NCBI RefSeq assembly: GCF_006345805.1
Contig: NW_021836140.1
Coordinates: 1 to 64,000, forward strand
Length of the DNA stretch: 64,000 bases
Reading direction: 5' to 3'
Source: Octopus sinensis
Lineage: Eukaryota
Below, piece after piece: positions 22,541 through 24,050 of this stretch. Each line of letters begins with the position of its first letter. Position 1 is the first letter of the stretch. The position numbers were made by a program.

Positions 22541-22599
<59 letters not shown>

Positions 22600-23969
22600 T
22601 AAGCAATAAAGGGTTTAGCAACGAATTGCCTTACCACATACCGAATTTAGAAATAGCAGTCAAAGAGTTATAGCTATTTCTTCTACTAAAAAGGGAGATC
22701 TCAGTAAAAACAGCAATTGGAAGGCAGACACAAACAGGTAAGAGAGAATGAATTGACGGCAATCTATCATACAATTTTAAGTTATCTACGGACGTACGTT
22801 TCGAAATCAAGTTTTTAGGAAAGCATAAGAATTAAATATTAAATAATTCTATCTCACCAAAACTTCTTTTCTCTTCAGCGTAGAATACTATAATCATAAA
22901 TGATTATATATTGAATTTTGAGATACTAGAAGGCACCAACTCAACTCAGTATCAGAGCGAGCTAGAATCCGCAACTAGTATCACCAAATTCAATGTGTGA
23001 ATGAAAAGATTGTGTCACCAGCCCCTTCCCACCCGCGTGTAGCCAAAACAAGATGCTGTGGTCATCTACTGAGATAAAATATGGTTATCCGTAATAATGA
23101 AGGGTGAAATTAATTAATTTGGAATAATTATCAATTACACCAAGTAGTCTTCGGCATGTAAAAGCCTCATTCGAGGAAAATTTAAGTAATACTAAGCAAT
23201 AAAGGGTTTAGCAACGAATTGCCTTACCACATACCGAATTTAGAAATAGCAGTCAAAGAGTTATAGCTATTTCTTCTACTAAAAAGGGAGATCTCAGTAA
23301 AAACAGCAATTGGAAGGCAGACACAAACAGGTAAGAGAGAATGAATTGACGGCAATCTATCATACAATTTTAAGTTATCTACGGACGTACGTTTCGAAAT
23401 CAAGTTTTTAGGAAAGCATAAGAATTAAATATTAAATAATTCTATCTCACCAAAACTTCTTTTCTCTTCAGCGTAGAATACTATAATCATAAATGATTAT
23501 ATATTGAATTTTGAGATACTAGAAGGCACCAACTCAACTCAGTATCAGAGCGAGCTAGAATCCGCAACTAGTATCACCAAATTCAATGTGTGAATGAAAA
23601 GATTGTGTCACCAGCCCCTCCCACCCGCGTGTAGCCAAAACAAGATGCTGTGGTCATCTACTGCGATAAAATATGGTTATCCGTAATAATGAAGGGTGAA
23701 ATTAATTAATTTGGAATAATTATCAATTACACCAAGTAGTCTTCGGCATGTAAAAGCCTCATTCGAGGAAAATTTAAGTAATACTAAGCAATAAAGGGTT
23801 TAGCAACGAATTGCCTTACCACATACCGAATTTAGAAATAGCAGTCAAAGAGTTATAGCTATTTCTTCTACTAAAAAGGGAGATCTCAGTAAAAACAGCA
23901 ATTGGAAGGCAGACACAAACAGGTAAGAGAGAATGAATTGACGGCAATCTATCATACAATTTTAAGTTA

Positions 23970-24050
<81 letters not shown>

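What the first reader, a model, noticed from the sequence alone, without database searches (positions are those of the whole stretch)
22598..23973. 593-bp tandem retrozyme-like array whose 5' end coincides with the hammerhead cleavage site
Seen: 2.3 near-identical non-coding units between (TA)n tracts. Each full unit has a canonical type I hammerhead on the minus strand (22785-22884, 23378-23477) with an unusually long stem II and a palindromic stem III. The partial third unit stops at ...gttatcta (23973), so the minus-strand 5' end begins TAGA, 2 nt after the predicted GUC|CG cut. Known: tandem minimal hammerheads occur in Penelope pLTRs and metazoan non-LTR retrozymes, which yield monomer-length linear and circular RNAs, and palindromic stem III permits dimeric cleavage. 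Inference: this is a recent retro-copy of a self-cleaved RNA, made by reverse transcription running through two or more monomers. It may be an undescribed cephalopod retrozyme/circRNA family with a long monomer.
Basis: partly seen in the sequence, partly recalled or inferred. Interest (0 to 1): 0.9.

Follow-up and report, generated by a model that had tools for sequence, protein, structure and literature searches.

The report
Hammerhead retrozyme array in TA microsatellite
This is a short tandem array of a non-coding mobile element that carries a self-cleaving hammerhead ribozyme motif and sits inside a TA microsatellite, a new example of the already described animal "retrozymes" that are thought to be copied by Penelope-like retrotransposons.

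Summary
Window 22596-23973 is 2.3 head-to-tail copies (593, 592 and 193 nt) that differ at 2 positions, flanked by (TA)31 and (AT)41.

- **Rfam:** Hammerhead_1 aligns end to end, but only when 131 nt are searched. It scores 21.1 bits against a gathering score of 34, because helix II carries a 65-nt insertion.
- **Structure:** the 593-nt minus-strand RNA is strongly self-paired (z -7.6). A 72%-identical-at-best relative at 34423-34985 is equally self-paired on the equivalent strand (z -7.9).
- **Insertion signature:** relatives share the same 3' end and also lie in TA runs. So do copies of a frameshifted Penelope-like element (RT plus GIY-YIG) in the same window.

I read it as a non-autonomous hammerhead retroelement of the metazoan non-LTR retrozyme kind, inserted by PLE-type target-primed reverse transcription of a longer-than-unit RNA.

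The 5' end does lie 2-4 nt after the predicted cut. However, this is 1 of 5 determinable 5' ends in the window, so it is suggestive only.

The "cephalopod" and "undescribed" claims could not be tested. A 593-nt monomer is within published ranges. This is a new member of a known kind.

The parts
22537..22598 (.). Left flank, (TA)31 microsatellite. This is the presumed target, on the 3' side of the element in its RNA sense.
   Evidence: TRF; sequence.
22596..23188 (-). Full unit 1 (593 nt). Its left end is the element's 3' end in the hammerhead sense. The first 3-4 bases are ambiguous with the TA run.
23189..23780 (-). Full unit 2 (592 nt). It has 2 differences from unit 1.
23781..23973 (-). Partial unit 3 (193 nt), identical to the matching part of unit 1. 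It ends 2-4 nt short of the position homologous to the predicted hammerhead cut, so it is the 5' end of the insertion in the RNA sense.
   Evidence: 100% over 193 nt.
22785..22884 (-). Hammerhead motif 1: a 6-bp helix I, the CUGAAGA core, a 69-nt helix II arm closed by G-C, GAAA, a self-complementary helix III segment, and GUC followed by the predicted cut between 22791 and 22790.
23378..23477 (-). Hammerhead motif 2, identical in sequence to motif 1. The predicted cut is between 23384 and 23383.
   Evidence: One search prints the identical string.
22649..22681 (-). Hairpin with a 9-bp stem that is kept in all three family lineages while the loop differs. It lies about 50-85 nt before the 3' end and is repeated in units 2 and 3.
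   Evidence: Alignment A3; folds.
23974..24055 (.). Right flank, (AT)41 microsatellite.
   Evidence: TRF.
34423..34985 (+). Diverged single-unit relative in the opposite orientation. It has a TA run on the left and a short TA run followed by (AGAT)n on the right. Both of its ends map to the unit boundary.
   Evidence: nhmmer E 8e-13 over unit positions 29-588; alignments; fold z -7.87.
34737..34798 (+). Hammerhead-like motif at the position equivalent to that in the array. It has the CUGAUGA core, a 30-nt helix II, GAAA and a 6-bp helix I with different bases. It has an A/A mismatch at the base of helix II.
   Evidence: Relaxed descriptor. No Rfam hammerhead hit.
21493..21815 (.). Diverged fold-back relative between TA runs. 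A 5'-truncated copy (about 21702-21815, sense on +) ends at the family's 3' end. It abuts an inverted copy (21493-21700, sense on -) that reads through the unit boundary. This relative has no hammerhead region.

Best explanation
The array is one insertion of a non-autonomous, non-coding retroelement of the metazoan non-LTR retrozyme kind.

**Proposed cycle.** A tandem locus is transcribed on the hammerhead strand (the minus strand here). Neighbouring hammerheads pair through their self-complementary helix III and cut after GUC, giving 593-nt RNAs that can be circularised by a host ligase. A reverse transcriptase/GIY-YIG endonuclease supplied in trans by a Penelope-like element nicks a (TA)n tract. 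It starts cDNA synthesis at a fixed internal site of a multimeric or circular RNA and copies more than one unit. The result is the observed layout of a partial unit followed by two full units.

**Shown here:**
- the array anatomy;
- the complete hammerhead motif;
- strong strand-specific RNA self-pairing, kept in a diverged relative;
- a common 3' end and TA-run targets, shared with PLE copies in the same window.

**Inferred:** transcription, cleavage, circularisation, the identity of the mobilising enzyme, and the idea that the 5' end records a hammerhead-cut RNA.
For: 1. **Hammerhead.** The strict descriptor hit 2 of 2 full units and nowhere else in 128 kb of strand, against 0.02 expected. 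Rfam Hammerhead_1 aligned full length at the same coordinates. The MFE and centroid folds recover helix I and a long helix II, and leave both core strands unpaired in the centroid.

2. **RNA-level structure on the hammerhead strand.**
- The monomer MFE is -163.8 kcal/mol with z -7.58, and 0 of 100 shuffles fold as well. The antisense gives z -3.52.
- There are 22 G-U pairs of 194 pairs in sense and 4 of 172 in antisense. 66% of bases are paired in the circular fold.
- The 34.4-kb relative cannot be aligned reliably in its centre (12-18 identities per 40 columns). It still folds with z -7.87 on the equivalent strand, at -174 against -129.6 kcal/mol antisense.

3. **Retrozyme traits.** The GC content is 34.6%. 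The unit has no ORF. It is tandem, with a hammerhead in each full unit.

4. **PLE-type insertion signature.**
- 5 of 6 ends of the three family loci abut a pure TA run of at least 16 nt. The sixth abuts a shorter TA run followed by (AGAT)n. Such runs cover 801 of 64000 nt.
- The 3' end is the same in three lineages.
- One relative has an inverted 5'-truncated copy.
- Craig et al. 2021 describe the (TA)n bias, partial tandems and inverted truncated copies for PLEs (PMC8557442 passages).

5. **A PLE is present in the window.** Window 1-4664 has RT motifs, a weak RVT_1 match (E 0.0068) and a weak GIY-YIG match (E 7e-4). A CxxCxxC motif lies just before the GIY-YIG match. A 117-nt direct repeat (1-117 and 4548-4664) is 99% identical. 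Its 3' end lies in a TA run. An 899-aa homologue has RVT_1 plus a C-terminal GIY-YIG domain.

6. **Conservation pattern.** The best-conserved stretches between lineages are the last ~165 nt before the 3' end and the ~95 nt just past it. This fits the published internal initiation of PLE reverse transcription, with the protein-binding RNA lying 3' of the start site (PMC11167929).

7. **Published model.** More-than-unit cDNA from hammerhead-processed or circular RNA, with PLEs as the likely mobilisers, is already in print (PMC4209133; PMC7229834).
Against: - The Rfam score is below the gathering score (21.1 against 34). The hit appears only with the lax filters of a 131-nt search.
- The 106-nt hammerhead region alone is not unusually stable (z -1.65; 11 of 200 shuffles fold as well).
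- The hammerhead-like motif of the 34.4-kb relative has a mismatch at the base of helix II, gets no Rfam hit and has fold z -0.03.
- The unit has no detectable similarity to the PLE in this window, so no partner is identified.
- The PLE-type hammerhead-like motifs in the window deviate from the core consensus and get no Rfam hit.
- Only 1 of 5 determinable 5' ends lies at a cut site.
- No expression, cleavage or copy-number data could be obtained.
Confidence: 0.7

Rival explanations
1. The array is ordinary minisatellite DNA. A unit was duplicated by unequal exchange or replication slippage next to a TA microsatellite, and the hammerhead match is a chance motif with no RNA role.
For: - The Rfam score is below the gathering score, and there is no hit in the default scans.
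- In a genome of gigabase size, a descriptor hit rate of 0.02 per 64 kb would still give hundreds of chance hits (my arithmetic).
- The near-identity of the units is equally expected from a recent DNA-level duplication.
Against: - The motif is complete and sits in each full unit.
- Strand-specific self-pairing of the whole unit (z -7.58 against -3.52) is kept in a relative whose centre is not alignable.
- Dispersed relatives share the 3' end and the TA-run target, which DNA slippage does not explain.
- A hammerhead-like motif with compensating helix I changes lies at the equivalent place in the relative.
Confidence: 0.08
2. The array is not a separate non-autonomous family. It would be the terminal (pseudo-LTR/UTR) part of a coding Penelope-like element whose ORF lies elsewhere in the genome, seen here as 5'-truncated tandem copies.
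For: - PLE copies are typically partial tandems with hammerheads in the repeated ends (PMC4209133).
- The 2026 preprint finds that Xenopus retrozyme families match PLE termini.
- Truncated PLE 3' ends in TA runs occur in this window.
Against: - Two complete units abut directly with no coding sequence between them.
- A diverged relative is exactly one non-coding unit long.
- There is no similarity to the window's PLE.
Confidence: 0.15
3. The array is a DNA transposon or MITE-like element with TA target preference and an internal tandem repeat.
For: TA-rich targets and strong self-complementarity are also seen in some MITEs. That comparison is recalled, not tested here.
Against: - Neither the array nor the 34.4-kb copy has terminal inverted repeats (sequence).
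- The left and right ends are unit-internal positions that differ between copies, while one end (the 3' end) is fixed.
- Self-pairing is stronger on one strand, with many G-U pairs. This points to RNA, not DNA.
Confidence: 0.04

Closest known systems
Metazoan non-LTR retrozymes (Cervera & de la Pena 2020, PMC7229834; Li, Clavereau & Pollet 2026 preprint, 10.64898/2026.07.22.740005)
   Same: - Non-coding tandem repeats of low GC content.
- A type I hammerhead in each unit.
- A highly self-paired unit RNA.
- Co-occurrence with PLEs.
- A short helix III with a palindromic loop, implying action as a dimer.
   Different: - The unit (593 nt) is longer than the ~170-400 nt of the 2020 paper, though within the 51-972 bp of the preprint.
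- Helix II is a 69-nt arm instead of a short stem-loop.
- Only 2.3 units are present.
- Expression and circles are untested.
- The host group is unknown.
Penelope-like elements and their minimal hammerheads (Cervera & de la Pena 2014, PMC4209133; Craig et al. 2021, PMC8557442; Frangieh et al. 2024, PMC11167929)
   Same: - Partial-tandem insertions.
- A (TA)n/AT-rich target.
- Inverted 5'-truncated copies in a relative.
- A fixed 3' end consistent with a defined reverse-transcription start.
- A hammerhead a short distance upstream of the 3' end.
   Different: - No RT/EN ORF.
- The hammerhead has a 6-bp helix I and no unpaired base between positions 9 and 10.1.
- There is no sequence similarity to the PLE copies in this window.
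Newt satellite 2 / Schistosoma-type hammerheads (Rfam RF00163 Hammerhead_1)
   Same: - The core and helix I align over the whole model.
- Helix III is a self-complementary segment like the model consensus.
   Different: A 65-nt insertion in helix II lowers the score to 21.1 bits, below the gathering score of 34.

Membership tests
Hammerhead ribozyme, type I (Rfam RF00163) | Conserved core: CUGANGA, GAAA, and U-H at the cut, with a G10.1-C11.1 pair. | tested here: met
   Sequence, strict descriptor and Rfam alignment of model positions 1-45.
Hammerhead ribozyme, type I (Rfam RF00163) | Three helices around the core, with the open end at helix I. | tested here: met
   The MFE and centroid folds give a 6-bp helix I and a long helix II. 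Helix III has only 2 bp in cis and 8 bp in a two-strand fold.
Hammerhead ribozyme, type I (Rfam RF00163) | Score at or above Rfam's gathering score (34 bits). | tested here: not met
   The score is 21.1 bits. There was no hit. The shortfall goes with the 65-nt insertion in helix II.
Hammerhead ribozyme, type I (Rfam RF00163) | Self-cleavage after H17. | not testable with these tools
   Needs in vitro transcription of monomer and dimer.
Metazoan non-LTR retrozyme | Head-to-tail repeats with a type I hammerhead in every full unit. | tested here: met
   2 of 2 full units carry the motif.
Metazoan non-LTR retrozyme | Non-coding and low GC, with no LTR/PBS/PPT. | tested here: met
   GC is 34.6%. 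No ORF of 40 aa or more lies inside the units. PBS and PPT were not searched for specifically.
Metazoan non-LTR retrozyme | Highly self-paired unit RNA. | tested here: met
   z -7.58. 66% of bases are paired in the circular fold. The relative gives z -7.87.
Metazoan non-LTR retrozyme | Expressed as unit-length linear and circular RNA. | not testable with these tools
   No transcriptome is available.
PLE-mobilised (non-autonomous PLE) insertion | AT-rich or (TA)n target, partial tandem, fixed 3' end. | tested here: met
   compared with passages of PMC8557442 and PMC11167929.
PLE-mobilised (non-autonomous PLE) insertion | Sequence relationship of the unit to the terminus of an autonomous PLE. 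| tested here: not met
   There is no similarity to the only coding PLE in the window or to its 3'-end relatives. The rest of the genome could not be searched.

The most novel reading that the evidence does not exclude
The insertion may be a genomic footprint of hammerhead cleavage in vivo. On this reading, the template was an RNA whose 5' end was made by the ribozyme, and a PLE enzyme copied it from a fixed internal start site through two uncut (or re-ligated) hammerhead sites.

The conserved block just 3' of that start site would then be the enzyme's binding site. That would force the element to use multimeric or circular RNA as template.

This would give the first locus-level link between ribozyme processing, circular or multimeric templates and PLE-type internal initiation. 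It would hold in a family with an unusually long helix II.
Probability: 0.3. Interest if true: 0.6.

Novelty: new member of a known kind. Interest (0 to 1): 0.4.

Why it matters
How animal retrozymes move is still a hypothesis. The published proposals are circular RNA templates and PLE enzymes.

This one window shows a retrozyme-type family and PLE copies using the same TA-microsatellite targets and the same insertion styles. It also shows one young insertion whose 5' end sits at the predicted ribozyme cut.

If a genome-wide survey of this family shows a pile-up of 5' ends at that cut and of 3' ends at one site, it would tie ribozyme processing to PLE-type reverse transcription in vivo. In vitro work on a PLE found no requirement for cleavage (PMC11167929).

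As a single locus, it is a tidy example rather than a discovery.

Tried and rejected
- **Rfam, whole window and wider region.** Neither the whole window at gathering thresholds nor 22400-24200 at E<=10 gave a hammerhead. The 11 matches were microRNA-like hits to the TA runs and two weak sRNA hits. I discount them as low-complexity matches.
- **Rfam, four other hammerhead-like places.** Lax searches of 34700-34840, 4490-4600, 35200-35330 and 7505-7675 gave no hammerhead. I therefore treat those motifs as unconfirmed.
- **Short-region folds.** The folds of the short hammerhead regions are not significant on their own: z -1.65, -0.03 and -0.42.
- **Link to the window's PLE.** A link between the unit and the PLE at 1-4664 or its 3'-end relatives was sought by BLAST and not found.
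- **Pfam on large ORFs.** A scan of ten large ORFs gave only a sub-threshold GIY-YIG hit and low-complexity membrane-like hits, which I disregard.
- **Organism.** It could not be identified. The RT fragment search returned 317 proteins at E<=1e-5 among 951 candidates. The best had 69% identity over 62% of the query, and only 2 of the 120 listed rows carried a name, the uninformative "hypothetical protein". "Cephalopod" therefore stays unverified.
- **In print or not.** A search for retrozyme plus cephalopod found 2 papers (1 listed), neither describing such a family. A search for hammerhead ribozyme plus octopus found 5 papers (4 listed), none relevant beyond Craig et al.. This does not show that the family is undescribed.
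- **Not checked.**
  - Any other copy of this genome.
  - Supplementary files of PMC8557442, PMC7229834 and PMC4209133. These are closed and may list cephalopod PLE consensus sequences, hammerhead families or retrozyme species.
- **Not used.** No protein complex or structure job was run, because nothing here claims protein binding.
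Full report
**What is there**

Window 22596-23973 consists of two full units (593 and 592 nt) and a 193-nt partial unit, head to tail. Units 1 and 2 differ by one 1-nt indel at 23026 and one substitution at 23072. The partial unit is identical to the matching part of unit 1. 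The array lies between (TA)31 at 22537-22598 and (AT)41 at 23974-24055. TRF missed the array itself because its longest period is 500. No ATG-ORF of 40 aa or more lies inside the units. The two ORFs listed start in the left flank. The one long stop-to-stop frame, 23816-24247(-), runs through the TA tract. The unit has 34.6% GC, against 36.6% for the window.

**The hammerhead**

On the minus strand at 22884-22785 and 23477-23378 (identical strings) the sequence reads as follows:
- a 6-nt 5' strand of helix I;
- CUGAAGA;
- a 69-nt arm closed by a G-C pair;
- GAAA;
- an 8-nt self-complementary segment ending in U;
- C;
- the 6-nt 3' strand of helix I.

*Evidence for the motif:*
- A strict descriptor written for this purpose hit only these two places in both strands of the window. 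The mean was 0.02 hits in 100 Markov-random windows, and 2 of 100 had any hit.
- When only 22770-22900 was searched, Rfam Hammerhead_1 aligned its whole model (1-45) to 22785-22884(-), with 65 inserted bases in helix II. The score was 21.1 bits and E 0.0042 for that small search.
- The MFE and centroid folds of the region recover helix I and a long, interrupted helix II.

*Evidence against the motif:*
- That score is under the gathering score of 34.
- Neither the whole-window scan nor a 1.8-kb scan at E<=10 reported a hammerhead.
- The stability of the 106-nt region is ordinary (z -1.65).

Helix III can form only two pairs in cis. Two copies folded together form an 8-bp intermolecular helix III at -51.2 kcal/mol, against -38.8 for two monomers. 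This is the dimeric arrangement described for metazoan type I and PLE hammerheads (PMC4209133, whole main text read).

**The whole unit behaves like a structured RNA on the hammerhead strand**

- The cut-to-cut monomer (22791-23383, minus) folds at -163.8 kcal/mol with z -7.58 (0 of 100 shuffles as good). The antisense gives -131.6 and z -3.52.
- The sense fold uses 22 G-U pairs of 194. The antisense uses 4 of 172.
- As a circle, the MFE is -156.9 kcal/mol with 66% of bases paired.

**Relatives in the same window**

BLAST and nhmmer found two diverged relatives.

*The copy at 34423-34985.*
- It lies in the opposite orientation and aligns to unit positions 29-588 (E 8e-13).
- It is one unit long, and both of its ends map to the unit boundary.
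- Identity is 52 of 74 in alignment columns 41-120 and 30 of 35 in columns 521-560. It is only 12-18 of 40 per block through the centre.
- Its sense strand nevertheless folds at -174 kcal/mol with z -7.87. The antisense gives -129.6.
- At the place equivalent to the array's hammerhead it has a hammerhead-like motif (34737-34798). This has CUGAUGA, a 30-nt helix II, GAAA, and a helix I in which two pairs differ on both sides from the array's yet still pair.
- That motif has an A/A mismatch at the base of helix II, no Rfam hit and an unremarkable fold. I count it as weak support only.

*The copy at 21493-21815.* It is a fold-back. A 5'-truncated piece ends at the family's 3' end. It is joined to an inverted piece that reads through the unit boundary for about 96 nt. 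It has no hammerhead region.

*Shared features.* In alignment A3 the array, the 34.4-kb copy and the truncated piece all end at the same homologous position, within a few bases. A hairpin with a 9-bp stem, 50-85 nt before that end, keeps its stem in all lineages while its loop differs.

**Targets**

The window holds 25 pure TA runs of 16 nt or more, 801 nt in all. Five of the six ends of the three family loci abut such a run. The sixth abuts a shorter TA run followed by (AGAT)n.

**A Penelope-like element in the window**

On the plus strand, 1-4664 carries frameshifted ORFs with RT motifs. The supporting evidence is:
- a weak RVT_1 match (E 0.0068);
- a sub-threshold GIY-YIG match (E 7e-4), preceded by a CxxCxxC motif;
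- a direct repeat, 1-117 and 4548-4664, at 99% identity;
- a 3' end that runs into a TA tract;
- a database search in which the RT fragment found 317 proteins at E<=1e-5 among 951 candidates;
- one of these, of 899 aa, which has RVT_1 followed by a C-terminal GIY-YIG domain.

Two further pieces related to this element's 3' end lie at 49710-49941(-) (81% identity) and 4969-5617(-) (70% over 88 nt). Both are bounded by TA runs. All three carry a hammerhead-like motif about 105 nt before the 3' end, with an extra base before helix II. Cervera and de la Pena report this extra base for PLE minimal hammerheads. However, each deviates from the core at one position, and the one tested gets no Rfam hit. 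The 593-nt unit shows no similarity to any of them.

**Reading**

The anatomy matches two published descriptions:
- metazoan non-LTR retrozymes (PMC7229834, passages; 2026 preprint, abstract and Results);
- PLE insertions, with their (TA)n bias, partial tandems, inverted truncated copies and unclear target duplications (PMC8557442, passages).

Frangieh et al. showed in vitro that a PLE enzyme cuts AT-rich DNA. It starts reverse transcription at fixed internal sites of a multi-copy RNA, and it needs RNA 3' of the start site (PMC11167929, main text).

The fixed 3' end here, together with the conserved block just beyond it in the next unit, fits that scheme. It would explain why a tandem or circular template is needed. 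This last step is inference.

**The 5' end**

The array's 5' end in the RNA sense lies 2 nt after the predicted cut, or up to 4 nt, since the terminal TA may belong to the flank. A random end would fall within 0 to +4 of the cut in about 5 of 593 cases (my arithmetic, and post hoc).

Against a general rule:
- The 34.4-kb copy starts at the unit boundary.
- The truncated 21.7-kb piece starts at an inversion junction.
- The 49.9-kb PLE fragment starts about 106 nt upstream of its motif's cut.
- The 4969-5617 piece starts about 540 nt upstream of its motif's cut.
- That makes 1 of 5 determinable ends.
- The upstream repeat of the PLE at the window start already includes at least 7 nt 5' of its cut position.
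- Frangieh et al. found no reads ending at the hammerhead site, and no need for cleavage in vitro.

The array is, however, the only copy whose hammerhead passes an Rfam alignment. The coincidence therefore remains worth a genome-wide test.

**Comparison and novelty**

- The idea that hammerhead-cut, possibly circular RNAs are templates for more-than-unit cDNA made by PLE enzymes is in print.
- A 593-nt unit lies within the reported 51-972 bp.
- What may be particular here is the 69-nt helix II. Another possible point is the side-by-side use of TA microsatellites by a retrozyme-type family and by PLE copies. The preprint text has no "target site" or "AT-rich" passage.
- I could not test whether the host is a cephalopod or whether the family is undescribed.
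- I file it as a new member of a known kind.

Noticed in passing
window 1-4664 (+): A frameshifted Penelope-like element. It has RT motifs, a sub-threshold GIY-YIG match preceded by CxxCxxC, a 117-nt direct repeat at both ends (1-117 and 4548-4664) and a 3' end in a TA run. The window starts inside its upstream hammerhead-like motif.
   Followed up: partly
window 4522-4560 (+), 5100-5065 (-), about 49867-49829 (-): Three PLE-type minimal hammerhead-like motifs with an extra base before helix II. Each has one deviation from the catalytic core: position 6 in two of them and position 4 in one. The one tested gave no Rfam hit. Two of them face each other about 520 nt apart on opposite strands.
   Followed up: partly
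window 4969-5617 (-) and 49710-49941 (-): Short pieces related to the PLE's 3' end, each bounded by TA runs. Their 5' ends are not at the hammerhead-like site.
   Followed up: partly
window 7523-7657 (+) and 35285-35241 (-): Two further hits of the relaxed hammerhead descriptor. There were 5 hits in the window against 0.195 expected by chance. The second has a palindromic 4-nt helix III loop. Neither gets an Rfam hammerhead hit, so they may be chance.
   Followed up: partly
window 5167-5298, with copies near 9730-9894, 38681-38858, 39086-39192 and 50489-50739: A short dispersed repeat of about 50-130 nt at 72-93% identity, present in several places in the window. It is unrelated to the array. 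I did not identify it.
   Followed up: no
window 24629-24965 and 35000-35084: Long (AGAT)n tracts, the first with 85 copies. One directly follows the short TA run at the right end of the 34.4-kb relative.
   Followed up: no
window 4046-4342: Imperfect ~100-nt tandem repeats rich in CA/TA, lying in the PLE's 3' untranslated part just before its hammerhead-like motif.
   Followed up: no
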